A DNA stretch of 60,912 bases, filler included, from Stramenopiles sp. TOSAG23-6 (GCA_900128565.1; 11 parts of 11 records of this genome joined end to end with filler, not necessarily neighbours in it), one strand, 5' to 3'. Positions 9,299 through 55,307 are shown, numbered from the whole stretch's first letter. The notes: generated from the letters alone by a model not told the origin. Numbers and translations are program-made.

Positions 9299-10993
9299 TC
9301 AGGCCCCCATGGCAAATAATAAAGGACACGGTAATTCTAAATCATTCTTCACTGCATCTAAATTATGTAAAACTCCCCAACCTGACGGCTTAGCAAATGC
9401 TGCCTGACAACTAAGCTGTTGAACTGCACGAAATTGTCGAGCAGCTTTATTCCTCCGTGTAGTATCTCCCAATTTATTTGAAACAAGTGCAATCAAATGA
9501 AGAACTCGTATCACATTTGTTACATCTTCGGCCACTACAAAACGTTGAAGTGCATCATCAAAGTTTGAAGATATTCGAAGCAGCGATTCTTTACATAATT
9601 GTTCGTCATCATTTGTCTGTTTCAAACCTAATTTCTTACTTAAAATCAACATTTCTGCCTCTGCAAGTCCACAAAATATTTCACCTTGAACATTTGGGAA
9701 ACAATGCTCCATGGCATATGGCATCACTGTTAACAATTGTTTTAAAGCTCTTTCTGGTGCCCCAAGACTGCAATGAACTTTTGCTAATGAAACAACACAT
9801 TCCGCATGCACTGATCGTAGTTGAAGTCGTTCACAAAGAGCAGTTGCTCGAAGAAGAGGCGGGACCGATGCGGCAGGATTAGATGGACTTACTTGATTCA
9901 TTACTGAAGCTAATAGGAGATATATGTGTATTGTAATAAATATGTTTTACATTTTGAAATTCGTTAGGTACAAAGTGTAACAAAAACAATTGAAATCTGA
10001 AATGAAGTATGAAAACGTATATGAACATTTTGTTTGTGAAGTCCATTTTTTGCACATAAAGGTAGCAACTGCTCAATGACAAAAACTGCTCTTTCATATT
10101 GACCTCTTTTAATCATTATTTGAACGGCACAATAGCAAGCTTCTACATATTTGGAAGCATTGTTAACAACATCACATTCACAAGATGGTAGTGATAAAGA
10201 TAATAACATTGATCCAATCGCTGAAGCTCGGCGCAGTTCGCCTTTGAAAACCGATCTTTTATGAAGTGCAACACATAGATTTCTTACCCAGCCCACAGGG
10301 GCACCAACAATAGGATACAACTTTCTGATTCTTAAAAGAGTAGTAATAGAAGCTTTATGCATTGACATTGAACTATTTTTGGTTTCATTCTTGTTCTCAA
10401 AAGTTGTGTTTTTATAGTGTTGATGACTCTCTAAAGTTGCCATGAGCATACTCAAACTAGTACCTGGTGCCTCACCACTTTCAAGACGAGCTAATTTACA
10501 TAAAGCAATACAATTTTCGAGAGAAGATTCCTTCTTTCCTGCATAGCAATGTAGTTTTGTAACCAAAGCTAACCGAGCTAGAGTTTTGTGACCAAATTGT
10601 TCCCATGCGTTTGATCTCATTAACTCCCTTTTACCACCGACGGCATCACCATACGAGTGACAAATACCGACTTTATTTGAGGGTCTTTCTCCCGTAGCTA
10701 ATGATTGATGATTACTTGTTGTATTAATTGAGTCTGAAGAAGGAACTGTTACGTCAAACGAACTGTGTAAAGTTTCCCAAACGTCTAATGGGCGCTGACT
10801 CCATCGATTCTCTGTATTCATTGTGCCACCACGAAATCGTTGATGTGAAGAATCCCGACCACCAACTGTTGTTCGATCATCGCATTTATTCCTATCAGAT
10901 GATGCTACATTACTACCATTATCACCATTACTTCGCCCATCATTTCTATCAGAGCTTCTATTTCGATAAAATTCATATCCTTTCGACTCTATC
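9299..10993 (-). CDS. ANAPC5: Anaphase-promoting complex subunit 5 (5'-partial; AT-AC repeat intron 9926-10020)
   Basis: TPR-like helices and VPPLLRATALCERLQLRSVHAECVVSLAKVHCSLGAPERAL..LGDTTRRNKAARQF, matching the APC5 C-terminus. Confidence 0.75.
9926..10020 (-). mobile_element. Repeat-family intron with AT-AC ends
   Basis: Minus strand CAT|ATACGTTTTC...GTACCTAAC...CAATACAC|ATA joins NVH to IYLLLASVMNQ in frame. Confidence 0.8.
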
Positions 10994-11140
10994 ATTAAAA
11001 AAATATATTTTTTTGTAAAATTTGTTAGGTACAAAATTTCNNNNNNNNNNNNNNNNNNNNNNNNNNNNNNNNNNNNNNNNNNNNTTAATTAATTAANNNN
11101 NNNNNNNNNNNNNNNNNNNNNNNNNNNNNNNNNNNNNNNN

Positions 11141-25066: not shown

Positions 25067-25112
25067 AAAAAAAACTAAAGTTTTTATTCTTAAATGTTTA
25101 CAAATAAAAAAC

Positions 25113-28379: not shown

Positions 28380-29288
28380 GTTGCATTGACTAGAGCTAAA
28401 TCAAAATTAATTATCATTGGTTCTGTTAGTACATTAAAAAATGATCAAATTTTATCAAAATTAATAAGTTTAGCAAATAAAAATTCGTGGATTTGTCAAA
28501 TTCCAAGAGATGGTTTACAGTACTATCCAACGTATCTAATGAACCCTAACCCTAACTCGTCCAAAACATCTACAGTTGTACAACAAATAAAGACATCAAA
28601 AAATATTGAAATGAAAAAAAATCAAAAAAATCAAAAAAATCAAAAAAAATGCAAAAATGGTTTGATTGATAATTTATCGGCAATTGAATGGGACTCTTTA
28701 TTTGATTCAATTGATGATGATGAATTAATGTCAACTGTAGATCCTACTAACCCTAACCCTAACCCTACTTCATCTTGTCATATCGATCAAAGTGAAACTA
28801 AAAATGAATATAAAAAAAAAAAAAACCCTAATTCCATGACTTTACCACCACCGAAGAGATTTCGTGCAAGTCAAACAATTTTACAATCACGGAAAACACG
28901 AAATACAGGTAATTTTTCCACAGATCATGTTGGTTCAATCACACGAAATATCCTCTTAGAGACGGAAGGACCAACGTATTCCACTAGTAGTAGTAGTAGT
29001 AGTGTTGTACTAAGTAATTCGAATAATAAACGACGAAAGAGACAACAACAACAAGTGCGTAACCCTAACCCTAATGATAACAATACCACGAATGGAAGTA
29101 ACTCTCAACAAATTCCAAATTCGTTACGTACAAAAGTTGGTACAAAAAAAACTCAAAAAACACAAAATTCAATTTCAAATTTATTTTGTACAAATGAAAA
29201 TAACAAAAATATGAAAAATATGATACGTCCTACCATTGCTACAGATAATACAAATGTGGGTTATCGAAAAAGACGAAAAAGAAACTAA
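28380..29288 (+). CDS. DNA2: Last exon of an SF1 (Upf1-like) helicase, probably DNA2
   Basis: Helicase motif VI VALTRAKSKLIIIGSVSTL followed by a low-complexity tail. Confidence 0.65.
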   Translation, partial: VALTRAKSKLIIIGSVSTLKNDQILSKLISLANKNSWICQIPRDGLQYYPTYLMNPNPNSSKTSTVVQQIKTSKNIEMKKNQKNQKNQKKCKNGLIDNLSAIEWDSLFDSIDDDELMSTVDPTNPNPNPTSSCHIDQSETKNEYKKKKNPNSMTLPPPKRFRASQTILQSRKTRNTGNFSTDHVGSITRNILLETEGPTYSTSSSSSSVVLSNSNNKRRKRQQQQVRNPNPNDNNTTNGSNSQQIPNSLRTKVGTKKTQKTQNSISNLFCTNENNKNMKNMIRPTIATDNTNVGYRKRRKRN

Positions 29289-29389
29289 ATATTTAACAAC
29301 CCTAACCCTAAGTAAACAAAATTTTATCTCTGTATTTGTAGTATTATTTTTGGTGTACCAAATTTTTCTTCTAAAATTTAAAAATTCTT

Positions 29390-33268: not shown

Positions 33269-33490
33269 NNNNNNNNNNNNNNNNNNNNNNNNNNNNNNNN
33301 NNNNNNNNNNNNTTAATTAATTAANNNNNNNNNNNNNNNNNNNNNNNNNNNNNNNNNNNNNNNNNNNNTTTTATGTTTTTTTTTTTTTACCGAAAAAAAA
33401 AAAAATCGAATTTTTTTTTTTATAAAAATGTTGTACCTAACGATTTTTTTTTTTTCGGTAAAAAAAAAAAAATATTTTTCTAAAATACAT

Positions 33491-35285
33491 TTATTGTTGC
33501 TTCGCTGGAAAAATAGTGCTGATATACATTCTTCATTATCAGGCCCATTACTTTCCTCTATTGGACCACTTCTCTCATTAGGCGCCAACTTGGAGAATGA
33601 TAATGAAATAGTTCAAAATATCTGTGATTGTACTACTTGTTATTTACGCTGTGCTCCTTTATCTATTGCGAATTTTGTCGGACCAGACGGGAAATTTGGC
33701 GCAGTCCATGTATGTTTTATTTTTTTTGAAATTCGTTTTTTTTTCGTACGAAATGTTGTACCTAACAAATTTTAGTTTTTTTTTTTTTAATATTTTTTCA
33801 TAATCCATATTCTGGCTTTATTGAAACGAATGCTCTCCGTACGAAACGATGGTAAATCGTTGTTCTCAGATGTAGCATTGTGTGATATTGGTATATGCAT
33901 TACACAAACAATTAGATGTTTTGGCACTGGTGGGTCTAAATATAATGTCGATCAAATATACGTTTTCATTTCAATTTCGAATTTATTTTGTTTTTTTCAT
34001 ACGAAATTTTGTACCTAACAAAAAAAATCAAAAAAAAAAATATTTTTTCACAATATATTCTTTCATCGGATCAGTTACGTGATTTACTTTTTGCTGTTTT
34101 GCAGAGACTGGTCATTGGTAAGTATGTATGTTTTATTTTTTTTTTAACAAAAAAATCGAAGTTTTTTTTTTTATAAAAATTTTGTACCTAACAAAATTTT
34201 TAGAATTTTTTTTGAAATATTTTTACAAAATACATCCCGCCATAAGAGAGTCTCTTGTAATCGTATTTGCCCAACTTATTCATTCTCATGGAGTTGAAGT
34301 CTTTATGAACGTGATAAATAGTATGCAAGCTCCTCGTCTAGATGTTGCTGCAACTGCACGATATAGTGAGGTATCAGGGGATACTCCGAGTGCTCTTGTG
34401 TGTATCCTACGAGAATTAATTGAGCATTGCCCAGTCATTCATTTGGAATTTGATAAAAAAATAGTTCTTCTTGCTCTTGCTAAAATATTGGCCTCAGGTG
34501 ATGTTCGATGTAGAGAAATTTCTGTACCAGGTGATGCTCCTAGTCTCAAAGGTCGTACTAGAGCTGCTGCTGCTGCTGCAAAACTACGAGGCGAAAATGA
34601 AGTCGCAAATTTAGTTCCTTTTATTATCAGAGCATATGTGTGTTTTTATTTTTTTTTTTTTCCGGTAAAAAAAAATCGATTTTTTTTTTTTTGAAAATTT
34701 GGTACCTAACGTTTTTTTTCAAATATTTTTCCAAAATTTATGCTCTTCTCATCCGAGGATTAGTAGCTGCAAAAGCTGCTGCTGCTCTATCTACCCTAGA
34801 TGAAGATGAAGACGAGTGGGAGTTTGAAGATTCAGACGGCGAACCTTTCTCCGATGATGAATATGATGAGGAGGAAGACATTAGTGATAACGTATGTTTT
34901 TGTTTTTTTTTTTTAGTAAATAATTTTTTTTTTTTTGAAAATTTTGTACCTAACAATTTTTTTTTTTAAGAAAATTTCAAAATATTTTTCCAAAATACAT
35001 GACGATAGTAATGGGATGTTTGGAAATATTATGCTTTCGGAACTCCTGGAGATGGGACATCAGTCGGCAGATTCTTTAAATGTATCGAATCATAGAAATG
35101 TTTATGAGAGAGATGAAAAAAAATATTTAAGTGAAATTGACCCATTAAACGATGTATCACTTATTGAACAACTCGGTTTGTTCTTTCAAGCGTCAATTCA
35201 AAGTGGTTCACCGATGAAGGAATGTATTAATTATATTAGTCGTGCTGATCAAGAAGCTTTGAAGCGTTGCGAAATTCTTCATTGA
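33491..35285 (+). CDS. IPO9: Importin-9, C-terminal part (introns 33710-33808, 33958-34058, 34126-34235, 34638-34741, 34892-35000)
   Basis: LRDLLFAVLQRL..AIRESLVIVFAQLIH..KIVLLALAKIL..GRTRA, acidic loop, DPLNDVSL. The frame is restored by removing five introns that all end in AT. Confidence 0.82.
33958..34058 (+). mobile_element. Repeat-family intron with AT-AT ends
   Basis: CAA AT|ATACGTTTTC...GTACCTAAC...CAATATAT|T CTT gives DQILSSDQLRDLL. Confidence 0.75.
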
Positions 35286-35435: not shown

Positions 35436-38400
35436 TTAGATAAGTGACATACGATATGCGTTTGTATCATTTTCTTCTTTTGAAGACTTGCGATTTCGTG
35501 ATCTTTTTGATGCTTTAGGTGAAGAACGACCCAAAACAAAAAGTAGATCTGGTTTCAAATTTTCTTCCTTCATCTTTTTGTGAACCAATTCAAGCGACAT
35601 GCCTTTTTTATGCATTTTTGCAAACGCCTTGTATCTCTTTCTCTCCTTCTTTTTGCGCTTCTTTCGATTTTTTGGTGAAACAGGTTTCAATTTTAGTCGA
35701 GATGCCATAAGTTTCCACTCTGCAGAACTCTGCAATGACAATAACGAAGATCCTACAGCATTACACTTACGTAACAGTGCAGATTTCTGGTCTGATACCC
35801 ATTCAACCCAAATGCTCACAGCTAATGTAGCTTTAGCTATTGTGCCTCCTGGTGTTACGAGAACCAAATCATTTGTTTCTATCATACTACCTTGTCTTCT
35901 AGGTGTCGATGGCACACATACTTCGAAACAATTATTTGCAGATTTAACTTTGAAAATAGTCAGAGGTACTTGCAAAGTAAACAATAATGTCGCCTCCTTT
36001 TCATCATAAATTGTGCTATCACCAATTCTTTTAGTGTGTCCATTAAGAATAGGATTGTCTTCATTATCGATTTCAGTTTCACCTATGGTATTATTACTCG
36101 ACATCACATTGATTTTTACAATGCCGTCATCGTGTGATGTGGATATTAGATCACATTGCCTTATATTATAAGCAAATTTCAATGTTTTATTCCAAACAGG
36201 GTGAACTGTTCCGCTTTCAATTTGTGTGTGAAGACTTTTGGTGTCGTCGTTTGTATGTAATTGTGGAAAAACAACTGCAAAAATATTTGTACTTCCCTTC
36301 CAATTGGACTCATATACCTTTCTCGCCGATGCGATGTGAACACATAAATTAAGCGCATGTTCATTATCCTTTGGACAATTTTTGGCATGTTGTTCTTCTT
36401 CTTCCCAAAAGGCTTTTACTCGTTCTATAGGTGTATTCGATGCAGTTCTTTTGACATCGAATTCCTCCTTTTGGATTTTTTCTTCGGGTTTCATTTTAGT
36501 ATTTTCATCTTCTGGATCTTTTGTATTTTCATCTTCTGCATCTTTTGTATTTTCGTCATCTAAATCTTCAATAAGTTCACCTTCTGGATCTTTTGTATTT
36601 TCATCTTCTGCATCTTTTGTATTTTCGTCATCTACATCTTCAATAAGTTCACCTTCTACATTTTTTGAAAAGACCCGTGCAATATCTCCTTCCGACTTGT
36701 TGGTTTGTAATATTTCTGATGAGGGCACTTCGTCTTCATTGTCTTTTGTTTCGTTACTTAATTCTACTTCTAGGTCTATGTCATGTTTAAAACTTTCATT
36801 TTCCGCCGTTTTCATAACATCTTCACTTTCAGCTTTTGCAGAAAATCCAGTTTTAGTTTCGGTGTCTCCACTTGCTTGTTTTGCTTCTATTTCATCCACA
36901 GAAAATCCAGTTTTAGTTTCAGTGTCTTCACTTGCTTGTTTTGCTTCTATTTCATCCACAGCTATCGCATAGCCCACTTCTACATGTTGTCTTGTTTTCA
37001 AAGGTAGTCTTTCATTTGATTTTGTACCATCTGATTCCTCTTCTGCTTTTGTCTCAACTAATTCTTCTTTTGCTTTCATTTCTGCTTTTTCTTTTGCTTT
37101 CATTTCGGCTTTTCCTTTTGCTTCCATTTCTGCTTTTTCTTTTGCTTTCATTTCTGCTTCTTCTTTTATTTTCAACTTTGCCAAATTAGCGGCTTTCAAA
37201 TCAGATTCTTTCTTTATTCTAATGCGATTCATAAAGTTCAACAATGTCCGCTGGATCACAGAAGCAGCGAGATTATGAACATCACTAGATTTAAATGCCC
37301 CAATAGTACCAATTACCATAGCCCGCGAAGATGGACGAGATGAGAATTTTAGAATGGACTTACTTGACCGTTTACTTTTGAGAATTTCCATTGCATCTTC
37401 AAAGTCTACAACTCCAATGGTATCATCATTATCCAATGCAATGAGGTACATTCCCAGCTGAACTCCTTTCGCTTTGAGTACTGGTTCATTTAAAAGTCCT
37501 ACGGCAATATGGCTTTTAACTCTTAATCCTAGCCCCATAAAACCCGCGGCAAACAATGCACCAATTGGCCATGTTTCAATGACTACTTCTATTTCTTTGT
37601 GTATTCGATTCATTACACTTTTGACATCTTTATTTTCACTCGTATCAAATACATTGGGCCTTGACCACCGCATTGACAGTGTACCCACGGACTCGTCTAT
37701 TGTACCATGCTCTCTAATAGCAAGTATTTTTATATGTTGAATTCTTTCTGATGATACACCTGATAGACTTAATTTACATTCTGCGAATGGTTTTATAGTT
37801 TTCTTGACAGATTTACCAGAAGTGGAGTTACTATACGAAACATGCAATAAACGAAAATCGATTTCTGGTTGTTGTATTCCACTGCAACTGAGAAAAAAAT
37901 GTTTATTCCATGTTATATTTTTTGCTTTTGGTACTTTTTCTGTGGATGCAGAGAGTACTTCATCAGTCATCAAATTAAATTCCTCTTTTTCTGTAAAAGT
38001 AGTATTTTTTTCGCCCACTAAAAGTTTACAAATTACTTTGCGAGATTCTCTAAATAATGCTGGATTCGGAAGATTACTCGCACTAAATAAAGATACCCTA
38101 ATAATTGAACCAGGTAATGTTTTCTTGTTTTGTATATTTGCATCTCTCAATTCTAAAACTTGGAGACTTGCTGACTTCTTCCGGAAAATGGATTGGATTT
38201 TTACAACCGATGTATTATATGGATCACATTCAACAGCATGCGCGATTGACTTTGCCCACTCGATAATTTCCAATGGTGGCCGCATAGTAAATCTAATTTG
38301 TAGTTTATGCTTACGCTTTACTTTCGCTGTAGATAAGGATTGTATGACCTCGTGGTAATTACCGCTGGTTATATGTGAATCGCCGTTGATGGCATTAATA

Positions 38401-38731
38401 TACATTCCTAATTCTACGCCATTTTTTTCACATAAAAATGGCTCTCCATTTGACTTTAAAATAAAGCTCTGCACTCTGGCACCACGGCCTCCATATCCTG
38501 GCATAAGATTCATACCAAGTTTTTCACGCCTCTTTGTAAGAGTGACATCTATTGTACGCCCACTGCGAGGCGCCACTAAACAATGGCTAACTAATTGAGA
38601 AACAACGGCCTTCTGCCATGACAGCATCATTGAACAACCAGGGAGTATGAAGCTGTATGAGTCAGGTAATAAAGACATTATAGGAACATTGATAGCCCCT
38701 TTCGAAGAACGACATTTTTGAATGGCAGTAG
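35436..38731 (-). CDS. Large PDZ, IQ and C2 domain protein with acidic tandem repeats (5'-partial)
   Basis: Two PDZ-like units (KLGMNL..GVELGMYINAING; GVQLGMYLIALD), IQ motifs (VVKIQSIFR, ASVIQRTL), two C2-like units, and EAEMKAK and EDENTKD repeats. Confidence 0.7.
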
Positions 38732-38971
38732 ATGTATTGTGAAAAAAAGTTTAGTTGAAAAAATCGTTAGGTACGAAATTTCGTATGAAAAAAAAATAAA
38801 TTAGAAATTCATNNNNNNNNNNNNNNNNNNNNNNNNNNNNNNNNNNNNNNNNNNNNTTAATTAATTAANNNNNNNNNNNNNNNNNNNNNNNNNNNNNNNN
38901 NNNNNNNNNNNNAAATTTTGTACCTAACAAATTTAAGTTTTTTTTTTTTGAAATATTTTTCCAAAATATAT

Positions 38972-39845
38972 GCGGATCTGCAGATCTTACTCCATCCAAT
39001 ATTACAATGAACGAACATTGGGGTGGTGATTTTCAAAAATCAACTCCAAATGGTCGTTATATTCGATTTGGTGTACGTGAACATGCGATGGCAGCTGTTT
39101 GTAATGGCATGTATGTTTTTTTTTTTTTTTTTTACCGAAAAAAACAAATCGAATTTTTTTTTTTGGTTTCGTACGAAATTTTGTACCTAACAAATTTGAG
39201 TTTTTTTTTTTGAAATATTTTTCCAAAATACATGTATGCTTTTGGTGGAATTGTACCAGCATGTGCTACATTTCTCAATTTTATTGAATATGCTTATGGA
39301 GCAGTGAGGCTCTCAGCATTGAGTAAAATGTATGTTTTATTTTTTTTTTTTTTTGTATGAATTTATTTTTTTTATAGTACATTTTGTACCTAACGATTTT
39401 TTTTTATAGAAAATTTTGAAATATTTTTTTTTCGTACGAAATTTTGTACCTAACAAACAATTTTAGATTTTTTTTTGAAATATTTTTCCAAAATACATGC
39501 GTGTCTTATATATTATGACACATGACTCCATTGGTCTTGGTGAGGATGGTCCAACCCATCAACCTGTGGAAGCATTGACAATGTGTCGTGCTACTCCAAA
39601 TTTATTGGTTTTTCGACCTGCTGATGGTAATGAAGTTGCAGGATCCTATTTACAAGCTCTTTCATCTGTGAATTCACAAACACCTTCCGTATTGGCTCTC
39701 TCCCGGCAAGGGACTCCAATTCTTCCTGGATCATCAGCTTCATCTGTTGCTTATGGAGCCTATATCATTGATAAAGAAGAACCAAACACAGATGGATCTG
39801 CACCTGCATTAACATTTGTTGCATCAGGAACTGAAGTTGCTTTAT
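38972..39845 (+). CDS. TKT: Transketolase, internal exons (GT-AT introns 39111-39233 and 39330-39498)
   Basis: [47 protein letters not shown] and [18 protein letters not shown]. Confidence 0.97.
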
Positions 39846-39978
39846 GTATGTTTTATTTTTTTTTAAATTTTTTTTTTCTGTAAAAATAATGTTTTTTTTT
39901 CGTACGAAATTTTGTACCTAACAATTTTTTTTTTTTTTTTGGTAAAAACATTTTTTGAAATATTTTTCCAAAATACAT

Positions 39979-42143
39979 CTGGACAGCATCCACAGCTAGG
40001 GATCTTGTAGATGGCTTCAAACATTTTTGGGACGGCTCCAAGCTTTTATTTGCTGATATAAAAGTTGGTACGAAATTAGTTGGTCGTGTAACACAAGGAC
40101 ATTCTCTTACTCGTCGAGAACGCAGACAGTTAATACGCACAGTCAATGACGTCATGTTAATGGTTCCTGTATGTTTTATTTTTTTTTTGTTTTCGAAAAA
40201 AAAAAAAAAAAAAAATCAAATTTTTTTTTCGTACGAAATTTTGTACCTAACACATTTTTTTAGATTTTTTTGAAATATTTTTCCAAAATACATGTGTCTG
40301 TGTTTTTCTTAGTGCCATTTCTTGAATTTTTACTGCCCGTTGCCATCAAACTTTTTCCCGGGATGTTGCCGTCTACTTTCACTACTGAGTTGAAGCGACA
40401 GGAAAATATGAAGAAACAATTGTCTGCACGTGTCGCACTGGCAGGGTTTTTACAGGAAGCAACGACAACGTATGTTTTATTTATTTTTTTAACCGAAAAA
40501 AAAAAAATCGATTTTTTTTTCGTACGAAATTTTGTACCTAACAATTTTTTTATAATTTTTTTTGAAATATTTTTCCAAAATACACAATGGCAAATGATAT
40601 CAAGAAGAAAAAGTCTGGCGAACTTGCAGCTACGGCGTCTGATTTACTAGGTATTATTGAAAGTGCGCGTAATGGGGAACCAATGAGTAATGATTCTTTA
40701 CTAACCATGACACAAATGTATGTTTCAATTTGTTTCAAATTTTTTTTACATTTTTTTTTTTTTTTTATTAATTTTTTTTTTCATAGTAAATTTCGTACCT
40801 AACAATTTAAAAAAAATATATATATTTTTCACAATACATGTTTAAAGACGAAATTACATTGGGATCAATGCAACGTTCTCAATTATCTGCTTTATGTCAG
40901 TATATGGGTCTAAAATCGTATGGTACAGACGCTGTTTTGCGTGTTCGACTACGATCTGCCTTACGAACGATCAAGCACGATGATCGTCTGATTATGTATG
41001 TTTTATTTTTTTTTTTTCCGGTAAAAAAAAAATCGATTTTTTTTTTTTTGGTTTCGTACGTAATTTTGTACCTAACAAATTTTCAAAATTTTTTTTGAAA
41101 TATTTTTTCAAAATACATGTATGAAGGAATTGATTCTATGAATAAGGATGAATTACAACAAGCTTGTGCTGAACGTGGAATGCGTTCTACAGGTCTAACA
41201 AAATGGGGTTATAAAAGAATTTTACACGATTGGTTGGATTTATCAATTACACATAAAGTTCCAACATCAATGCTTATCCTTTCAAGGGCGTTAAATATTA
41301 CTGCCAAAACTGAGCGAATGGAAGCTATAGCTCAATCTCTTGCGGGCATGGATGATGAAGTTGTTAAAGAAGCTGTCCTGGAAGCAGCTGTGGACAATTC
41401 ACCTTCTTTAAAGCTTGATACACTACGTATACAACAAGAATTGATTGAAGAAGAACGTGAGCAGGCTGAATTCATTGAAGAAAAGAAAAGAGAAGCAGAA
41501 GAGGCGGAATTAATTAAAGAAAAGCAAATGGAGACTTTAGAAGCCGATGTTTCTGTTATGACTCCTGATGAATCTCTACAAGACATATCAATATCAGAAA
41601 AAGATACATCTATTAGTCTTGAAACTATTATTGACAGAGAACGAAGTAAAGTTGTGAAAGAATCACGAAAAGAAATTGATGATGCGATCCAAAGAGATAA
41701 AATTAGAGATGCAAAGGAGGCTTTAACTATTGATCCATCGGAGATATTAGTTGATCCAGCAGCGGCGACAGTACTCGATGATAAGTCAAACACTGTAGAC
41801 AATAGAAATAACAATGATAAAGATGATGAGGAAGAAAAAGCATTGGATAAACTCAAGGCATGTTTTATTTTTTTTTTTCAATTTTTTGTCAATTTTTTTT
41901 TTCATAGTAAATTTTGTACCTAACGATTTTTTTTATTTTTTTTACGAAAAAAAAAAAAAATATTAATTCACAATACATGCATCTGATTTAGAAGTATTGA
42001 ATTTATTAATGTCCGATTCTGCGATGGATGCAGAGAGAGGTCGAGTTGCTGAAATGCTACTTCAACAAGAAAAACTTGAAAGGGAAAGAGTTGAAGATGA
42101 AGAAGAAGAATTGCAGGAACTTGCGAATGTCTTGGAAGAACAT
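39979..42143 (+). CDS. LETM1: LETM1/MDM38 mitochondrial inner-membrane protein, partial (introns 40169-40293, 40470-40585, 40718-40839, 40996-41118, 41858-41978)
   Basis: KHFWDGSKLL..LTRRERRQLIRT..VP|VSVFFLVPFLEFLLPVAIKLFPGMLPSTF, DDRLI|MYEG and ELQQACAERGMRS. Confidence 0.95.
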
Positions 42144-43718: not shown

Positions 43719-43749
<31 letters not shown>

Positions 43750-44250
43750 CAAAAGACAAAAATTCATGTCTGTTTTATTTTTTTTTTTAAATTTGAAATT
43801 GAATTTTTTTTTTTTTTTTGTTTTTATAAAAATTTTGTACCTAACCCTAAATTTTAGTTTTTTTTGAAATATTTTTCTAAAATAAATGTCAGACTTTGTT
43901 CCATAGAATATTTTGTGGATTTTGTGGAATATTTCAAAAAAAAAAAAAAACATTTTTTTAAAAATTCTGTAGTATCAAGAGAAAGAGCATTATCAGCTTC
44001 AAATGTATATTGTTCCGCTGGTTCAAGATATCATGAACCGAGTACGTGTAACCCTAACCCTAATTTTCAATTTTATGTTTCATACGAAATTTCGTACCTA
44101 ACTAAAAAAAAAAAAAAAAATTAATGAAAATTAACGAAAATTAATTTTTTTTTGAAATATTGTTTCACAATATTTTGGTACTTTTGAAAGATAATGACTT
44201 AAAAAATCGAATTATACTTAGTAAAAAATCTGTTACTCATTTAAGGAGAA
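42294..44250 (+). CDS. Phosphatidylinositol-phosphate kinase (PIP5K family), multi-exon, partial
   Basis: SAGKGGSFFFNTFDERFMLKTI, SLLMKI, SNIFP, EKYDLKGS and TLKDNDL. Confidence 0.85.
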
Positions 44251-44447
44251 TATATGTTTTATTTTTTTCAATGTTTTGTCAACATTTTTTTTTTTTTTTT
44301 TTTTTGGTAAAAAAATTTTGTACCTAACAATTTTTTTTAGATTTTTTNNNNNNNNNNNNNNNNNNNNNNNNNNNNNNNNNNNNNNNNNNNNTTAATTAAT
44401 TAANNNNNNNNNNNNNNNNNNNNNNNNNNNNNNNNNNNNNNNNNNNN

Positions 44448-45078: not shown

Positions 45079-47630
45079 TCATTTCATACCTCTCATTTTT
45101 TCTTTTTCATCTTCTTGTTCTTCTTTTATTTTAATTGATTCCCAATCGACCGAGACTTTCTTATTATATTTTTGAAAATTCGAATCTGTTTCTTTCTTTT
45201 GCCGTGTATTGTAAAAAAATATTGTAGAAAAAAAATTGTTAGATACGAAATTTCGTACGAAAAAAAAACAATTTAAAATTCATCATGAAATACGTACGTT
45301 GTTCCAAGTAATTTTGTCGGTATCCTACAACTGTATCTACATGTGTTTGATTCTTAGTAGCTAATTTTAGTGCTCTTTTCCATCGAAACAATCGAATATT
45401 TAATTTAATTGCTCTATATATCATGGGTGGGGATGCTTGCAGCAAAATATTTTCGGCTTCATCAATGGCACCCCGATACACAGCTAATTCGGCATTTCTT
45501 CTTTCTTCAACTGGTATACCTTTCATATACAAAACAAATTGTAGTTTTGCCATTTCGGAAACTTTTGCAAGAGCTATTTCAGCAGTGCTAAGATGTCTAC
45601 CCCACAATGCCATTGAAGCTAGTGCAGCCCAAAGTTCCTTCCTTTTCACAAATCTACACAATGTATTGTGAAAATATTTTTTTTGTAACAAAATTTGTTA
45701 GGTACAAATTTTCGTACGAAAACAAAATTTAATTTGAAATTTAATTTTGAAAACGTACATCGAACAGCTTCATTCCACTGCTGCTTTACAATAAATGCAT
45801 ATAATAATGGTGGATACGGTGATACTGAAGCAGTAACAATGGATCCATCAGATTTTCTTACTGTAACCCGGGAACCAAAGTTTGAAACAATAAAAGGATG
45901 TTTACCAAAGCTTGCCGCATCACTGACAATTTTTGTTTGTTCAAGTAAGTCTTTATCCACATAAACGCTATGTGGATAAACCCATGTAACAAGTTTACCA
46001 TCTGTACAAGCAGAGAGCATGAATTGTAAAAAAATATTTATTTTTTGTAAAATTTGTTAGGTACAAAATTTTCATAGTAAAAAAAACAAATTTTGAAAAA
46101 AAAAACATACATGTCAGAAGAATCATTCCATTCTGATGTATCGCACATGGTGACAAGCTTTACTGGTTTTTGTCCCAGTTTTACGACATAAAGATCACGA
46201 TTTGAATCTACAAAAGAGATCATTGGATCTCTAGACTTTGTAAATTGACTCAAATCTAATTCTTGGATATCACGTGAATGCACTATAGGTTTACCTCTAG
46301 GTTGTCCTGTGTGTACATCAAACACTATGAAACTTTTACGCATCGACGAATTGAGAATTGCTATTTTGTCTGCACTGAGGGATATAGCACGCTCATTCAG
46401 CATTTCTGCGCGCAATCCTTTAAATCTAGGATTAGACAAAACACGACCTTCATAATTATATACTTGAATGCCAGCAATAGCATTCACCATTACGAACAAA
46501 CAATCACTTTGAATAATCATTGTTGGAGGATGTCTTAAATCAAATATATGCGGCGTGTTATAGTTATCCACAGAGTAAATATGACATTGAGAAGATGTAG
46601 TCACAATTAAATGACCAAATGCAATAGACATGTCAATCACACGGCTACGGAAATCAATTTTTTCACTGTTTTCAGTCATGCAATTCATTACTTCTATTCG
46701 ATTTGCATCGGTTAGAGTCACTTCAATGTTTTTCCATTCCAAACGTCGATTGACCAAAGTACTAATAATAACACTCCCAACGCCACCGGCACCAGCACAG
46801 CTTGTACCATCATCAGTCCACGCCAAGCGTAAAAGTGAACCACTCTGAAGTCGAGATCTTGAATAAGACCAACCTGTTTGATCACAGAGCCGAAGTAAGT
46901 TATATGATCCAACAGAAAAACATTCACCAGTTGGAGACCAGGCGATAGAAGTAATGACATAGTCAAATGGGGCACTCGAGTACAAAAGACGCCCATATGA
47001 ATCCCACACTTTATATTTACAGTCTTCACCACATGAAATAATCTTACCATTCACTGGATTCCAGTCTGCTTCAGTGACAATACCATCGTGCGCTTTCCAT
47101 TGAAGATGTTTCCGATCAATCTTTGTTGTTTTTATTAACAAATCCCGACCCTGGGTAAATAAAAGTTGATCATCATTAGGTGCCCATCGTACACTATATA
47201 TTGGATGTTTTGATTTCATGATTGTGGCTCTTAACTGTCCCGTGCGGGAAAAAGTTTTCACTGCTCCATCCTCACCACCAGTTACAATTACATTTCCTTG
47301 AAAACTCCAACGAACGCAAATGACAGCACCACGATGAGCTTCAATTTTTTTTTCTATACGACCAGATTTATGTATCAGACAAAACGAACCATCTGTACAC
47401 CCGGAAACGAACATATCTGCTACCATATTATGTGTTGTAGGCTGCCAATGAAGACTTGTTACATAAGTGTTAAATGTAACTAAAGTTGGTTTGAGGAGTT
47501 CTCCACTGGTTGACCACAGGCTGATTGTTTTATCATCTGATGCTGCAATTACTTCATTATTTGGAGTAAATTCAACTGCTGATACAACTTCGTCGTGATG
47601 CCGCTGTACTTTTGCAATATCAAGTCGCAT
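45079..47630 (-). CDS. IFT80: Intraflagellar transport protein 80, complete, 4 exons (introns 46019-46110 GT-AT, 45661-45758 GT-AT, 45204-45297 GT-AC)
   Basis: WD40 repeats WKAHDGIV..WNPVN..SCGEDCKYKVWDSYGRLLYSS, RLCDQTGWSYS; spliced EAVR|LCRFVK and YLEQ|RQKKETD..VDWESIK. Confidence 0.96.
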
Positions 47631-47933
47631 TTTACTTTTGCTAATTGTCCAGAAAGATAAAAACCGTAGTATAATTATCTACTTTGTCGGTTGAAAACCA
47701 AATCTTTTTTGGAACCGTTATAACTTATAACGTCCTTTTTGAAACGAACACGAAATCTCAAAATCTCAAAAACAAAAAACCGTTACAAAATATATGACAT
47801 CTTCCTTTTTTGATCGTCCAGAATGTTTACACACGGCTTTTTACTTTAACAAGATTCAATATTATTATATTATTATATTTTTCTGTACAACAAAGTAAAT
47901 AAATATAAACGAATATATACAAAAAAATATAAA

Positions 47934-49115: not shown

Positions 49116-49233
49116 AATTTCAAAGTGGGAAGGAACAATAACTTTCTCTTGCTTTGTAAATTATACGTATAAATATTTATAACAACTTTTAATTAGTTTA
49201 TTTTCTATAAGACGTTTCGTTGATATCAGTGTT

Positions 49234-49876
49234 TCATTTTGTAATATTCCTCGGAGGTGGAGGATGTGCCCGATGAATGGTTTTTTTTTGAGGAGGATGG
49301 GCATTATAATGCGCCTTTTGAGGAGGAGGACGAGGAGTATAATGTTTTGTTTTACGTGATGGAGGTCGTCTTTGATGAAATTTAGGTATATCCAGTTTCG
49401 ATTTTTGTGGTGGTGTTGGCTTGAGCTTGAGAGGCGACTGTTTTGAAACTTTTCTGGGCTTCTTTTCAACGTCTCCTTCTTTCGCAATTATTATTTCTTC
49501 TTGTTCTTTTTTTACACGTTCGAGCTCTGCTTTTGCTTGGTATTCCTCGTGCTCGGCCTCAACCATTGATCGCTCTAGATTTATACGTTCGACTTCGAAT
49601 TTTGCATCTTCTTCACGGCGTACGCTTTCGGCATACTTCTTATTTGCTTCCTGTTCCTTGCTTATGGCATCAGCTTTAACTCTCTCCAATCGCAATTGCT
49701 CTTTTTCCACTAAGGCTTCTTCTTCTCGGAATGTTTGTTGTTTTAGGCGTAATTTTTCAGCTTCATCGTTTTGTTCTTCTTCAAGGCGTAATCTTTCAGC
49801 CTCATCTTGTTGTTTTTGTTCAAGATGTAATCTTTCAGCATCATCTTGTTGTTCTTCTTCAAGACTTTCAGCTTCA
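49234..49876 (-). CDS. Coiled-coil and Pro-rich protein, C-terminus (5'-partial)
   Basis: EAERLRLEEEQ repeats followed by a PPPQK tail. Confidence 0.6.
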
Positions 49877-50011
49877 NNNNNNNNNNNNNNNNNNNNNNNN
49901 NNNNNNNNNNNNNNNNNNNNTTAATTAATTAANNNNNNNNNNNNNNNNNNNNNNNNNNNNNNNNNNNNNNNNNNNNAAATTTTGTACCTAACATTTTTTT
50001 TTTTTTTTAAA

Positions 50012-52063: not shown

Positions 52064-52487
52064 TAAACCCCATTGCAAGTTGCTCAATCTCACAAAGGAA
52101 AAGTTTTAAACCAGCAATACAAGAATGTAATATAGCTGTTACCACGCGCAGTATCAGACAAAACAGGACTCCAAGTGAGATTTGAAGCAATTCAAACGGT
52201 ATAGTATTTTTATTGAGGATAATAATCATGTGATTGCAAGATATGGCAAGTAAAACAATCACCACAAGTAATAACATTATGAACTTGGATATACACATTT
52301 GTATATAATAAAATTATTCATATATCAAAATTATTTTGTTTCTTGTTTTAGTGTATAATAAACTTTGATTACACTGTTATAAAAAAAAATTAAAAATATA
52401 TTTATAATAATTACATTTACTTGATTATAATAAACACATTAAAAATATATTTATATTAATTACATTTACTTGATTGAACCCTATATA

Positions 52488-55307
52488 TTAATTACATTTA
52501 CTTGATTGTACAATACAAACTTTACCTTGTTTTGTTCCATATACAAAACCCATGCCTGGTTTTGGATGAAAAAGAGCAATATTTATATCATCATTGACTT
52601 TTTTAATAGTATTAATAAATTTCATATCTGATGTTCTTACAATAGATGCAATTTTACGATTTTCATTACCCGGTACACCACCATCATTACGTCGTTCATT
52701 ACTTCTTTTTTGATATCCTACAATAATAAAATGACCTGTTGGTGAAAATTTCACGGATGTTATTTCTTTTGCATTTTTAGGTGATACTTTAACTGAAGTA
52801 TATTGTGAAAAAATATTTAAAAAAAAAAAAAAATGTTAGGTACAAAATTTCATACAAAAAAAAAAAGTTTGAAATTGGTAAAAACTATGATATGAAAAAA
52901 AAAATGATGGTATAGGGTTAGGGTTAAAAACGTATATAATTTCACGTCTTTCTTCTCCATTCAATGAAATGACGGCTATACAATATTTTCTTTCACAACA
53001 TTGATTTCTTTCGCTAAATTCTTGAGATTCTGTAGTTTCTGTTGAACATGTTTGTGCCACATTATTATTTATTGTATTCTTTGAAATTTTTATACCAGAA
53101 ATATTTGGACTTTTCCTTTTTTTAGGTAATTTTATTTTTATTTTTGTTTGTTTTTTTTGATTATTATATTTGTATTCTTGTTGATTACGAATAGGGTTAC
53201 TATCAAAATGTATTGTAGGTATATTATCATTTTGATTTCGTTTTTTTCGTTTTGGCCATGACATGGATTTTCGTATATTTCGTGTTTTTTCAAAGTCTAT
53301 TGAAGAAAATTTAATTTTATTATGAAAATGTCTACAAAAATATTCAGAAAATATATTTGCATTATTTACACATTTTGGTATAGAATAATAAAAATTATTT
53401 ACTGTACGTTGATTTGGATTATATACTATATTACAAATTGGAAATTGGATTTTTGGTTTCACCATTCGAAATGGTGTTGGACTAATACTACTACTTTCAT
53501 ATTTCGTGTTTTCATGATTTTTTTTTTTTTCCCCAAAACGTTCCAAAGACAATTTTTTTTTTATTTGTTGTTTTGATTTTTTTTGTTGTTTTGTTTTTTT
53601 TTGTTGTTTTGTTTTTTCAGTAGTTGGTGTTGTCACTTTATATTCAGACAAACCTGTTTCTGTTTCATTATAATGGGGTATATAAGCATGAATAGTGAAA
53701 CGTCCATTTTTAAAAAGATGTGGTTTTTCACCATATAATTTGAAATGCAATTGATATTGAATACTCAATAACATTTCATTATTTATATTGACTTGTTTTG
53801 CAGTTGGAACAAAATTGGCAAAAGCAAATGATTCATCATACAAACAGTTTCGTTCCATTTGAACTTGATTACGTAACAAATTATTATACGAAAAAAACCA
53901 ATCCTCAATAGCTTCATTTGTCTTATTCACGTCAATACAAGCAACAAGTATTGTGAAAAAATATTTCAAAAAAAAAAAATTAAATTTGTTAGGCACGAAA
54001 TTTCGTATGAAAAATTAAAATTTCAAAAAAAAAAAATTAAATTTGTTAGGTACGAAATTTCGTATGAAAAATTAAAATTTCAAAATAAATAAATAAATTA
54101 GACATTCATATAAAACATACAATACAGCTTTCAGAAGGATGAATACCAAAGCCACCATCATTATAGAGTAGAGCATGATCAACAATAACTTGTTTATTTG
54201 ACAACACAAATTGATTTGTAATGTCATTATTACAATATTTCGTGTTTTTTACATGTTTTGTATTTTCACAACGTTTGGATTTTGGAATTTCAATTTCTGT
54301 TTCCAAATCATTCATAGTAATACCTATAGATTGTAAAGCATATATTTTGGAAAAATATTTCAAAAAAAAAATCTAAAAAAAATCGTTAGGTACAAAATTT
54401 TTATAAAAAAATAAATTGAAAAAATATTTCAAAAAAAAATCTAAAAACATTTGTTAGGTACAAAATTTCGTACGAAACCAAAAAAAAAAAATCGTTTTTT
54501 TTTTGGTTTAAAAAAAAAATAAAATAAAACATACATGCCATCGACGTATCCGTGAATTATCATAATTAAATGAATAAAATCCAAAACGAGCTTTACATTG
54601 TGGACATTCTAAAACACCTGACGATTTTGGAATTTCAAGAATTGCTGAACATTTCATTCCACTTCCAATTTTGTTTTCAAAAGTATGTAAAGGTGGATAG
54701 TTTATTTTTTTTTCAAATTCATTATTACATTCATTTGGTTCATTTGGTTCATTTAGTGTATTATCAAAATGTCTATTTGAATTATTATTTGAGTTCTTAT
54801 TTAAAGTATTATTTGAGTTATTATTTGAGTTATTATTTGAGTTCTTAGGAGTATATTCCCAAATTTCACCTTTACATTTTACAAAATTTGTAGCTGTATA
54901 ATCTTTACTAATTAATCTATGTAATACATTTGAATAAGGAACTGGAGACACTTCAGATCGAATGACTGGTAATTCTATTGGAACATTTAATTGATTTTGT
55001 TTTTCTAAATGTAATTTTGTGAGAAATGCATCGATTGAAAAATCATATAGTGTAAAGTATATATCAAATTTAATATTTGTTTAGATTGTATTGTATATTT
55101 TTTTTTTTTTTTTTCAAATTTCAAAATTTTTTTTTTTTTTTAAATTTCAAAATTTTTTTTTTTTTAATTTTAAATGTCTAATGAAAACGTATATATTTCG
55201 TGAGTTGTACTGTATTATTCGGTACCGGGTCTCCCGTTACAGGTAATGTTGTTTCACCTACAATCAAAAACTGTCCAGATGGTGGAAATTCAACACATCG
55301 AAATGCA
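52488..55307 (-). CDS. AMBRA1: AMBRA1-like split WD40 protein, multi-exon, 5'-partial
   Basis: FRCVEFPPSG, LLYNDGGFGIHPSESCI|VACID, ITSVKFSPTGHFIIVGY and DINIALFHPKPGMGFVYGTKQGKV. Confidence 0.7.
53946..54120 (-). mobile_element. Repeat-family intron with apparent GT-TT ends (TT duplication) and a doubled core
   Basis: TGT ATT|GTATGTTTT...CACAATAC TT|GTT GCT TGT, in frame (SCIVAC). Confidence 0.65.

What the first reader, a model, noticed from the sequence alone, without database searches (positions are those of the whole stretch)
9926..52935. The donor also varies: AT-AC, AT-AT and GC-AT members of the same family
Seen: ATACGTTTT donors in ANAPC5 (9926-10020, AT-AC), IPO9 (33958-34058, AT-AT) and AMBRA1-like (52798-52935, AT-AC). 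LETM1 41858 has a GCATGT donor, although a 4-nt slide would make it GT-AT. Known: GT/AT interchange and tolerant terminal dinucleotides are typical of U12 introns (RTATCCTT, branch TCCTTAAC), whereas GTATGT and CTAAC resemble yeast-like U2 signals. Inference: RTAYGTTTT plus TTTTGTACCTAAC could be a diverged minor-spliceosome class or a U2 class with U12-like tolerance.
Basis: partly seen in the sequence, partly recalled or inferred. Interest (0 to 1): 0.8.

Follow-up and report, generated by a model that had tools for sequence, protein, structure and literature searches.

The report
Intron family with non-GT, non-AG ends
A marine protist's genes are full of copies of one short transposon-like intron that usually ends in AT instead of the near-universal AG, and a few copies also begin with A or GC instead of GT, which suggests an unusually tolerant splicing machine rather than the rare 'minor' spliceosome.

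Summary
All four cited introns are at the stated coordinates and belong to one repeat family: GTAYGTTTT ... TTTTGTACCTAAC ... AATACAT. The branch motif has 69 hits against 0.9 expected.

Of 34 curated members, 25 are GT-AT, 3 GT-AC, 2 GT-AG, 2 AT-AC, 1 AT-AT and 1 GC-AT. Of 37 unique family 5' ends, 6 start with A.

Seven G-start junctions with non-AG 3' ends are colinear with homologues or Pfam profiles, six to the residue and one within one position. The A-start intron in the APC5 gene (10020-9926) is the only splice variant that aligns without a gap to the closest homologue. It admits no GT or AG register. The other two A-start introns rest on family alignment and reading frame only. No RNA contig bridged them.

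A U12 reading is not supported. There is no ATCC donor and no TCCTTAAC. The branch site lies 32-60 nt from the 3' end.

Best reading: a MITE-like introner family in a MAST-3-like stramenopile, removed by a U2-type spliceosome that tolerates other first and last bases. The snRNAs could not be searched because no genome is held. I rate it a new variant of a known kind.

The parts
9926..10020 (-). A-start family intron in the APC5 gene. It runs ATACGTTTTC...TTGTACCTAAC...ACAATACAC (AT-AC, 95 nt). The equally valid registers are TA-CA, AC-AT and CG-TA; none has GT or AG.
   Evidence: Sequence. Exon 2 matches human APC5. Splice variant A is gapless against P0121 and scores 248 bits, against 243, 236 and 234 for the three alternatives.
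33958..34058 (+). It runs ATACGTTTTC...TTGTACCTAAC...CACAATATAT (AT-AT, 101 nt).
   Evidence: Sequence. It aligns with the family. The consensus register is in frame. It is not validated by homology or RNA.
52798..52935 (-). It runs ATACGTTTTTAACCCTAACCC...TTGTACCTAAC...CACAATATAC (AT-AC, 138 nt).
   Evidence: Sequence. Family alignment. In frame. Not validated by homology or RNA.
41858..41978 (+). GC-start family intron in LETM1. It runs GCATGTTTTA...TTGTACCTAAC...CACAATACAT (GC-AT, 121 nt). Because GCAT is repeated at both ends, five registers are possible, including GT-AT.
   Evidence: Sequence. In frame. The neighbouring LETM1 exons match the Pfam profile.
44252..44347 (+). Partial family intron that starts ATATGTTTTATTTT and has a branch motif at 44318. 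The 3' end is lost in an assembly gap.
16701..16791 (-). Partial family intron that starts ATATGTTTTATTTT, preceded by gtat, so a GTAT-ATATG reading is also possible. The 3' end is lost in an assembly gap.
56200..56269 (-). Short ATATGTTTT...TCGTACCTAAT...CATAATAC element in the APC4 gene. The consensus register is not in frame. The in-frame readings are AT(56267)-AG or A1 with a 3' end 2 nt before the AG. Boundaries are unresolved.
   Evidence: plus my own reading of the frames.
40169..40293 (+). Reference G-start member (GT-AT) in LETM1. The junction is validated to the residue, and the AT-AC register is excluded because the flank is CT.
   Evidence: The Pfam LETM1_RBD profile ends at position 21 on the last residue of the upstream exon and resumes at position 22 on the first residue of the next exon.
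40996..41118 (+). Reference G-start member (GT-AT) in LETM1.
   Evidence: Profile positions 119-169, then one split codon, then 171-228.
39330..39498 (+). Reference G-start member (GT-AT) in transketolase, with two internal branch-motif units.
   Evidence: The Transket_pyr profile reaches 99 on residue 30 of the upstream exon and resumes at 103 on residue 2 of the next exon. The three residues between them fill positions 100-102.
46019..46110 (-). Reference G-start member (GT-AT) in IFT80.
   Evidence: The junction reads ...NDSSD-M-LSAC... and is colinear with P0002 (78% identical), P0003 and P0014.
45661..45758 (-). Reference G-start member (GTACG...ACAT) in IFT80.
   Evidence: The junction NEAVR-L-CRFVK is colinear with P0002, P0003 and P0014.
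45204..45297 (-). G-start member that ends in AC (GT-AC) in IFT80. Its branch variant is TCGTATCTAAC.
   Evidence: Sequence. The junction YLEQ-R-QKKETD has the same length as in P0002.

Best explanation
The A-start and GC-start introns are variant copies of one MITE-like 'introner' family that fills the genes of a MAST-3-like marine stramenopile.

**The family.** A copy is about 92-195 nt long and has three blocks:
- a 5' block GTAYGTTTT;
- a central block TTTYGTACGAAATTTTGTACCTAAC that supplies a UACUAAC-like branch site;
- a 3' block ATATTTTT(C/T)CA(A/C)AATACAT.

Most copies are preceded by AT and also end in AT. The excised unit therefore looks like the element plus one copy of a 2-bp target duplication, and its removal restores the reading frame.

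**Proposed mechanism.** I propose that the major (U2-type) spliceosome removes them.
- The 5' site is set by GUAYGU and the branch site by CUAAC.
- The 3' cut is placed about 40 nt downstream, after the conserved ...AYA-N.
- The identity of the last base is largely free: mostly T, sometimes C or G.
- The same tolerance lets copies whose first base has mutated from G to A, or whose second base has mutated from T to C, still be spliced at the homologous positions.

**Shown.**
- The family exists.
- Seven G-start junctions use non-AG 3' ends.
- One A-start intron (APC5) uses the family ends.

**Inferred.**
- The type of spliceosome.
- The transposon origin.
- Correct splicing of the other two A-start copies.
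For: **Family.**
- The branch motif has 69 hits against 0.9 expected and GTAYGTTTT has 42 against 2.4.
- Thirty members align along their whole length to a 108-nt consensus.

**Register.**
- The GT...AT register keeps the frame open in 26 of 27 introns. Registers shifted by a non-multiple of 3 do so in 10-16 of 27.
- The one miss is a chimeric join between transketolase and LETM1.

**Junctions validated by homology.**
- IFT80, three introns, against P0002, P0003 and P0014.
- LETM1, two introns, by Pfam profile coordinates 21|22 and 169|170|171.
- Transketolase, two introns: one exact and one within one position.

**A-start intron in APC5.**
- Variant A (10020-9926) aligns without a gap to P0121 across GLHKQNVHIYLLLASV.
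- It beats both GT-AG variants in 9 of 9 homologues.
- It beats the GT(10026)-AC variant in 6 of 9, ties in 1 and loses in 2.

**Family census.**
- Of 37 unique family 5' ends, 30 are GT, 6 AT and 1 GC.
- Of 34 curated introns, 27 end in AT, 5 in AC and 2 in AG.

**Target-duplication signal.**
- The 5' flank is AT in 24 of 34 against a 10% background (p = 4e-17).

**Nearby GT-AG alternatives carry no weight.**
- They exist within 45 nt for 32 of 34 members.
- Six of the seven validated G-start introns have such alternatives yet, by homology, use the family ends instead.

**Lineage.**
- The best protein hit is 96% identical and is labelled GSMAST32 by its source.
- The next named hits are oomycetes.
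Against: **No RNA evidence for any junction.**
- The one read-laying run gave no contig bridging the importin-gene introns.
- I did not lay the APC5 or WD-gene contigs.

**Two of three A-start introns lack homology support.**
- They have in-frame GT-AG alternatives: 33947-34074 and 52945-52793.
- For APC5, the GT(10026)-AC variant is only 5 bits worse than variant A against P0121, and it is slightly better against 2 of 9 distant homologues.

**The U2-type assignment rests on motif resemblance alone.**
- No snRNA of this organism could be examined.

**The target-duplication case is incomplete.**
- The flank equals the intron's last dinucleotide in 22 of 34, which is not more than composition predicts (permutation p = 0.16).
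- The inverted terminal repeat is only about 7-8 nt.

**The curated set is biased.**
- I chose the 34 partly for consensus-like 3' ends, and one helper script required A at position -2.
- The share of AT ends and the 'invariant A' therefore lean towards the consensus.

**First and last bases.**
- The link between a first A and a last C is only suggestive: 2 of 3 against 3 of 31, Fisher p = 0.05.
Confidence: 0.6

Rival explanations
1. The family, or at least its A-start members, is a diverged U12-type class removed by a minor spliceosome whose U11, U6atac and U12 have co-evolved with RTAYGTTTT and GTACCTAAC.
For: - AT-AC ends occur in 2 of 34 members.
- Terminal bases are tolerant, as in U12 introns.
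- The donor and branch motifs are unusually long and rigid, which is typical of U12 introns (recalled).
- Some stramenopiles keep a minor spliceosome (recalled).
Against: - The donor has GTT where U12 introns have CCT.
- RTATCCTT has 6 hits against 3.8 expected, and TCCTTAAC has 0.
- The branch A lies 32-60 nt from the 3' end, far beyond the recalled U12 range.
- A-start copies differ from G-start copies of the same element by a single base. They would need the same machinery as 30 GT members whose GTAYGT plus CTAAC signals look like U2-type signals.
Confidence: 0.07
2. The A-start copies in the importin-like and WD-repeat genes are not spliced at the family ends. They use nearby cryptic GT...AG sites instead, so the AT donors are only apparent.
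For: In-frame, stop-free GT-AG alternatives exist: 33947-34074 and 52945-52793. No homologue or RNA contig decides between the readings.
Against: - Such alternatives exist for 32 of 34 family members. Six of the seven validated G-start introns have them yet, by homology, use the family ends.
- The alternative donors GTCGAT and GTGAAA do not match the rigid GTAYGT seen in 30 of 37 family 5' ends.
- In APC5 the equivalent GT-AG alternatives lose in 9 of 9 homologue comparisons.
Confidence: 0.15
3. The family is excised without the spliceosome, as proposed for the non-conventional introns of euglenids, hemistasiid diplonemids and Amoebophrya. Pairing between the intron ends would define the cut sites, so terminal dinucleotides would not matter.
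For: - The ends are partly complementary: GUAUGUUUU against AAAAUAC.
- A 4-bp terminal helix appears in 3 of 8 minimum-free-energy folds.
- Short direct repeats sit at the borders, as in those systems (PMC7789003 and PMC12621601, passages and sections read).
Against: - Folding is weak. Seven of 8 introns do not fold better than their shuffles (z from -1.45 to +1.33), and the three A-start introns show no end pairing.
- The family has a strong, fixed donor and a fixed branch motif at a spliceosome-like distance. The non-conventional classes lack these (PMC12621601, section 5, read).
Confidence: 0.1
4. The A-start copies are dead introns or artefacts: amplification or assembly errors, chimeric joins, or copies in decaying genes that are never removed correctly.
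For: - The assembly has clear artefacts: an inverted-palindrome contig and a chimeric join from transketolase to LETM1 inside a family intron.
- No independent DNA run was laid on these sites.
Against: - Long open frames continue on both sides of all three introns.
- Both APC5 flanks are colinear with one homologue, so that contig is not chimeric there.
- A at position 1 recurs in 6 of 37 independent copies, too often for random error.
Confidence: 0.08

Closest known systems
MITE-derived non-canonical introns of the tunicate Fritillaria borealis (Henriet et al. 2019, seen only through passages of the review PMC11282704)
   Same: - Many short, similar, transposon-like introns with inverted terminal repeats and target duplications.
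- The 3' ends are AC or AT, created by the duplicated target.
- Removal is thought to be by an adapted U2 spliceosome.
   Different: - The Fritillaria donors are mostly AG, and its splice sites are highly diverse.
- Here the donor is a rigid yeast-like GTAYGTTTT with a fixed branch motif, and GT-AT dominates.
- The host is a stramenopile protist, not an animal.
Introner elements of Micromonas, Aureococcus and other aquatic eukaryotes (PMC11282704, PMC12130899 and PMC7789003, passages read)
   Same: - A multi-copy element that carries its own splice signals.
- A short target duplication is co-opted as one intron end.
- The hosts are aquatic protists, including a stramenopile.
   Different: - Described introners use canonical GT or GC with AG.
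- One survey checked families with mainly unfamiliar splice sites by hand and discarded those lacking transcript support (PMC12130899, methods passage).
- This family ends in AT, AC or AG and tolerates A at position 1.
Non-canonical introner elements of Amoebophrya, and non-conventional introns of euglenids and hemistasiid diplonemids (PMC7789003 passages; PMC12621601 sections 3, 5 and 11)
   Same: - Non-GT-AG borders and short direct repeats at the junctions.
- A proposed MITE origin.
- Standard gene finders fail on them.
   Different: - Those classes have no conserved donor or branch motif.
- They rely on 8-20-nt or G/C-rich end pairing.
- Here the signals are fixed and the folding is weak.
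U12-type AT-AC introns and rare U2-type AT-AC introns (recalled: Patel and Steitz; Wu and Krainer; Parker and Siliciano on the pairing between first and last bases)
   Same: AT-AC termini occur. A first A combined with a last C is the combination known to be compatible with the second catalytic step.
   Different: - There is no ATCC donor and no TCCTTAAC branch site.
- The branch lies far from the 3' end.
- The default pair here is G...T, which fits neither known class.

Membership tests
U12-type (minor spliceosome) introns | Donor consensus /RTATCCTT | tested here: not met
   The family donor is RTAYGTTTT. RTATCCTT has 6 hits in the window against 3.8 expected, and none lies at a family intron.
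U12-type (minor spliceosome) introns | Branch site TCCTTAAC close to the 3' end (about 10-26 nt, a recalled figure) | tested here: not met
   TCCTTAAC has 0 hits. The family branch A lies 32-60 nt from the 3' end, median 42.5, and 38-40 nt in the three A-start introns.
U12-type (minor spliceosome) introns | U11, U12, U4atac and U6atac snRNAs and minor-specific proteins present in the genome | not testable with these tools
   No genome is held. Rfam on the window gives 0 matches.
U2-type spliceosomal introns | GT-start donor able to pair with U1 and U6 (GTAYGT-like) | tested here: met
   Thirty of 37 family 5' ends are GTAYGTTTT. Pairing with the organism's own U1 and U6 could not be tested.
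U2-type spliceosomal introns | Branch site of YNYTRAY / TACTAAC type upstream of the 3' end | tested here: met
   ACCTAAC or ATCTAAC is present in all 30 aligned members, at 32-60 nt from the 3' end.
U2-type spliceosomal introns | 3' end YAG | tested here: not met
   Only 2 of 34 end in AG; 27 end in AT and 5 in AC. Seven G-start junctions with non-AG 3' ends are validated by homology.
Introner / MITE-derived introns | Many similar copies in unrelated genes | tested here: met
   There are 69 motif hits across about 11 independent contigs. The 30-member alignment shows conserved blocks throughout. In four RNA runs, 123-1238 contigs were laid, mostly on the family stretches.
Introner / MITE-derived introns | Target-site duplication at the borders | tested here: inconclusive
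   The 5' flank is AT in 24 of 34 (p = 4e-17 against background). Two AC-ending introns have AC flanks. However, flank equals end in 22 of 34, which is no more than composition predicts (p = 0.16).
Introner / MITE-derived introns | Terminal inverted repeats | tested here: inconclusive
   GTATGTTTT against AAAATAC gives about 7-8 complementary bases with one bulge. This is short, and it is absent in the GTACG...CACAAT subfamily.
Introner / MITE-derived introns | Presence or absence at orthologous sites in relatives, or an autonomous partner element | not tested
   Pattern scans of the viral, metagenome and genome collections returned only chance matches: 25 of 25 loci lack the family architecture.
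Non-conventional (euglenid / hemistasiid / Amoebophrya) introns | No conserved donor or branch motif; extensive pairing of the intron ends | tested here: not met
   The donor and branch motif are fixed. Only 1 of 8 folded introns beats all its shuffles, and the A-start introns show no end pairing.

The most novel reading that the evidence does not exclude
In this MAST-3-like stramenopile the major spliceosome no longer needs G at the last intron position, and only prefers G at the first.

- The 3' cut is set by the element's own ...AYA-N tail, at a fixed distance from a rigid branch site.
- This allowed one transposon-like element, together with its AT target duplication, to spread as a genome-wide class of GT-AT introns.
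- GT-AC, GT-AG, AT-AC, AT-AT and GC-AT members would be working variants of that class.
- Existing gene models for this lineage, built with canonical-site tools, would then be systematically wrong.
Probability: 0.5. Interest if true: 0.8.

Novelty: new variant of a known kind. Interest (0 to 1): 0.62.

Why it matters
**Splicing mechanism.**
- The AG at the 3' end is one of the most constant features of spliceosomal introns.
- A uniform, abundant GT-AT class that keeps a textbook donor and branch site would be a clean natural system. It would let one ask how the second catalytic step picks its site, and how far the first-to-last base interaction can be relaxed.
- A-start copies ending in C or T would serve as built-in test cases.

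**Transposon-derived introns.**
- It would add a stramenopile lineage to the few known cases (Fritillaria, Amoebophrya, euglenozoans) in which transposon-derived introns carry non-canonical ends.

**Annotation.**
- The only near-identical public gene model found (P0001) reads into these introns and then forces other splice sites.
- Gene counts, completeness scores and any inference of gene decay in such single-cell genomes may therefore be distorted.
- I did not test that wider claim. The supplements of the MAST papers, which may bear on it, were closed.

Tried and rejected
**RNA evidence.**
- The look-up of sequencing runs listed 6 RNA runs with small word shares.
- It laid 123-1238 contigs, mostly copies of the family, and listed many cross-copy joints.
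- No listed contig bridged an exon-exon junction of the importin-like gene. Fifty-two joints were not shown.
- This says nothing for or against splicing. In hindsight the transketolase/LETM1 contig would have been the safer choice.

**More family copies elsewhere.**
- Pattern scans for the A-start donor plus branch motif gave 10 loci in viral contigs and 7 in metagenome contigs.
- A scan for R-start donors gave 8 loci in genome contigs.
- All 25 loci are single chance matches without the family architecture.

**Close homologues of the importin-like gene.**
- Two searches with single exons among longer proteins found none.
- The PDB and Pfam also found nothing.

**Whole-genome snRNA search.** Not possible.

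**An AT-AC register for the whole family (both borders moved 2 nt upstream). Rejected.**
- It is impossible in 10 of 34 members, whose flank is not AT.
- In LETM1 intron 40169-40293 it would replace a proline that human and yeast LETM1 conserve at this position (recalled).

**Diplonemid origin. Dropped.** I considered it because of the TTAGGG-like repeats and the literature on non-canonical introns. I dropped it after the IFT80 search, where the best hits were a MAST-labelled model and oomycetes.

**Covariation of the first base with position -1 or -3.** Only suggestive (p = 0.05 and 0.07).

**Literature.**
- A search for 'MAST-3' + 'introns' + 'splice' found 2 unrelated papers.
- Passages of three MAST single-cell genome papers mention no non-canonical introns.
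- One search was rejected for a term with an apostrophe, and I did not repeat it.
- Gawryluk et al. 2016 is not held.

Full report
**What the window is.** It is not one stretch of chromosome. About eleven contigs of roughly 5.45 kb are joined by N44-TTAATTAATTAA-N44 linkers every ~5,550 bases. One contig (11141-16600) is an inverted palindrome. Another contains a chimeric join inside an intron: transketolase exons run into LETM1 exons at 39846-39978. The DNA is eukaryotic and AT-rich, and it is held by marine DNA runs and seawater metagenomes. An IFT80 exon has a best database hit of 96% identity to a gene model that its source labels GSMAST32. The next hit is an unnamed 78% relative, followed at 42-58% identity by more unnamed environmental proteins and, among the named hits, mainly oomycetes. 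I therefore treat the organism as a MAST-3-like stramenopile.

**The observation.**
- 10020-9926 (-): ATACGTTTTC...ACAATACAC.
- 33958-34058 (+): ATACGTTTTC...CACAATATAT.
- 52935-52798 (-): ATACGTTTTT...CACAATATAC.
- 41858-41978 (+): GCATGTTTTA...CACAATACAT.

All four carry TTGTACCTAAC. That motif has 69 hits with at most 1 mismatch against 0.88 expected. GTAYGTTTT has 42 hits against 2.4 expected. ATAYGTTTT on its own is weakly enriched (12 against 4.8; 1 of 100 shuffles reaches 12). However, 6 of the 12 are followed by the branch motif within 125 nt (p = 4e-5). Besides the three cited A-start introns there are two ATATGTTTT copies cut off by gaps (44252 +, 16791 -) and one unresolved short copy (56269 -).

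**The family.** I aligned 30 of my 34 curated introns, leaving out the four longest (39330, 42144, 43339, 54534). They give a 108-nt consensus: GTATGTTTTATTTTTTTTTT...TTTTTTTTTC.TACGAAATTTTGTACCTAACAAATTTT...TTTTTTTTGAAATATTTTTTCAAAATACAT, with conserved blocks throughout.

The 34 are 92-195 nt long (median 108), and the branch A lies 32-60 nt (median 42.5) from the 3' end. Their ends are GT-AT 25, GT-AC 3, GT-AG 2, AT-AC 2, AT-AT 1 and GC-AT 1.

I excluded the following from the 34:
- copies cut by gaps;
- the palindrome's duplicate copies;
- the chimeric intron;
- copies whose 3' end did not resemble the consensus (for example 3039, 12635, 13757, 19510, 20167, 20802, 30536, 44005, 54120, 56971).

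The share of AT ends is therefore biased upward. The 'invariant' A at position -2 is partly built in, because the helper script required it.

**Are the non-AG ends real?** Yes.
- The consensus register keeps the frame open in 26 of 27 introns tested. Registers shifted by a non-multiple of 3 do so in 10-16 of 27. The one miss is the chimeric join.
- In IFT80, three junctions are colinear with a 78%-identical relative and with two more distant ones...NDSSD-M-LSAC......NEAVR-L-CRFVK... and ...YLEQ-R-QKKETD....
- In LETM1, the Pfam profile stops at position 21 on the last residue before intron 40169-40293 and resumes at position 22 on the first residue after it. It runs 169 | split codon | 171 across intron 40996-41118.
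- In transketolase, the profile is colinear across 39330-39498, and within one position across 39111-39233.

No AG lies at any of these 3' ends.

**Which register?**
- Moving both borders 2 nt upstream would make AT-AC introns. That is possible only where the flank is AT (24 of 34).
- In intron 40169-40293 the flank is CT, so that register is excluded there. It would also replace a proline that human and yeast LETM1 conserve at this position (recalled).
- GT...AN is the one register that fits all members.

**The A-start introns.** For APC5 I built four splice variants inside a script and compared them with nine homologues found by the representative search.

Scores against the closest homologue, P0121:

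| Variant | Intron | Bits | Alignment across the junction |
|---|---|---|---|
| A (AT-AC) | 10020-9926 | 248 | gapless: GLHKQNVHIYLLLASVMNQVSPSNP against GLHAQRARLLLLLASVLARVCPTNP |
| D (GT-AC) | 10026-9926 | 243 | 2-residue gap |
| B (GT-AG) | 10016-9910 | 236 | 4-residue gap |
| C (GT-AG) | 10016-9904 | 234 | 6-residue gap |

Variant A beats B and C in 9 of 9 homologues. Against D it wins in 6, ties in 1 and loses in 2. Given junction A, the only possible registers are AT-AC, TA-CA, AC-AT and CG-TA. This intron therefore has neither GT nor AG.

For the importin-like and WD-repeat genes, both the family register and one GT-AG alternative are open, and nothing I could run decides between them. 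That alternative carries little weight. In-frame GT/GC-AG alternatives within 45 nt exist for 32 of 34 family members, and six of the seven validated G-start introns have such alternatives yet use the family ends. The alternative donors GTCGAT and GTGAAA also do not resemble the rigid family donor.

**Transposon-like features.**
- The 5' flank is AT in 24 of 34 members against a 10% background (p = 4e-17).
- The intron's last two bases are AT in 27 of 34.
- Two of the five AC-ending introns have AC flanks.
- This fits an element GTATGTTTT...AAAATAC with a 2-bp target duplication, in which the intron is the element plus one duplicate.
- In four of the ten members whose flank is not AT, restoring AT would be a synonymous change (my reading).
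- The case is incomplete. Flank equals end in 22 of 34, no more than composition predicts (p = 0.16), and the inverted repeat is short.
- Contigs often break inside family copies.
- Hundreds of RNA-run contigs match the family stretches.

**Which machinery?**
- U12 features are not met: the donor lacks ATCC, TCCTTAAC has 0 hits, and the branch site is far from the 3' end.
- Non-conventional, structure-guided excision is unlikely. Of eight folded introns, only one folds better than all its shuffles, a 4-bp end helix appears in three, and the A-start introns show no end pairing.
- GTAYGT plus a CTAAC branch site at about 40 nt looks like a U2-type intron whose last base is free.
- A-start introns end in C in 2 of 3 cases against 3 of 31 for G-start introns (Fisher p = 0.05). 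This hints at the known A...C compatibility of first and last bases (recalled), but n is tiny.
- The organism's snRNAs could not be examined.

**Known relatives and novelty.**
- The closest described systems are the MITE-derived AG-AC and AG-AT introns of Fritillaria (passages of PMC11282704), the canonical introners of Micromonas, Aureococcus and others (PMC11282704, PMC12130899), and the non-canonical introners or non-conventional introns of Amoebophrya, euglenids and hemistasiid diplonemids (PMC7789003 passages; PMC12621601 sections 3, 5 and 11).
- None of these combines a fixed yeast-like donor and branch site with a default AT 3' end.
- A library search for MAST-3 with introns and splicing found only 2 unrelated papers. 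Passages of three MAST single-cell genome papers do not mention non-canonical introns.
- The near-identical public gene model P0001 reads into two family introns (...SSDMYVFFFKI......AVRCTF...) and then uses other sites, so the class seems to have gone unrecognised there.

**Verdict.**
- The minor-spliceosome reading is not supported.
- The tolerant-U2 reading is the best available, and it sits within a larger and more interesting picture of a GT-AT introner family.
- One of the three A-start introns is established by homology.
- RNA evidence is still missing for every junction.

Noticed in passing
window 5471-5570, 11041-11140, 16601-16700, and so on every ~5,550 bases: The window is a chain of contigs of about 5.45 kb joined by N44-TTAATTAATTAA-N44 linkers. 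Genes on different pieces are therefore not neighbours in the genome.
   Followed up: yes
window 11141-16600: This contig is an inverted palindrome around ~13,870. Every ORF and intron appears twice in mirror image, which is probably an amplification or assembly chimera.
   Followed up: partly
window 39846-39978: This family 'intron' joins transketolase exons to LETM1 exons, and it is the only family member out of frame. It looks like an assembly join through the repeated intron sequence.
   Followed up: partly
window, e.g. 12282-12293, 13605-13616, 21802-21921, 28544-28768, 29063-29074, 29300-29311, 30226-30237, 44052-44063, 52912-52923: Short telomere-like (CCCTAA)n runs have 28 hits with at most 1 mismatch against 0.1 expected. 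Many lie inside long open frames, where they read NPNPN. Two lie just after the donor of family introns.
   Followed up: no
protein P0001 against window 45204-47678 (-): The 96%-identical public gene model reads into the family introns (MYVFFFKI, CTF), skips 19 in-frame residues elsewhere, and uses other splice sites. Canonical-site gene finders appear to mis-model this genome.
   Followed up: partly
window 39330-39498, 54340-54534, 19510-19693, 54007-54120: Some introns hold two tandem copies of the internal unit with the branch motif, which suggests internal duplication or nested insertion of the element.
   Followed up: no
window 36862-36921: RNA contigs from two runs (X7 record 14, X9 record 28) skip exactly 60 nt inside a repetitive KAEMKAKEK-coding stretch of the 1104-aa ORF. 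This is more likely a repeat-length variant than an intron.
   Followed up: no
window 33369-34278, 34643-35006, 38647-38812: In four RNA runs the summed contig depth over the family-intron stretches reaches hundreds to thousands, against 0-6 over the exons. Family sequence is therefore abundant in RNA libraries, whether as pre-mRNA, excised introns or carried-over DNA.
   Followed up: no
window 56200-56269 (-): This short ATATGTTTT...TCGTACCTAAT...CATAATAC element in the APC4 gene is not in frame under the family register. An AT-AG reading two bases in would be in frame.
   Followed up: partly
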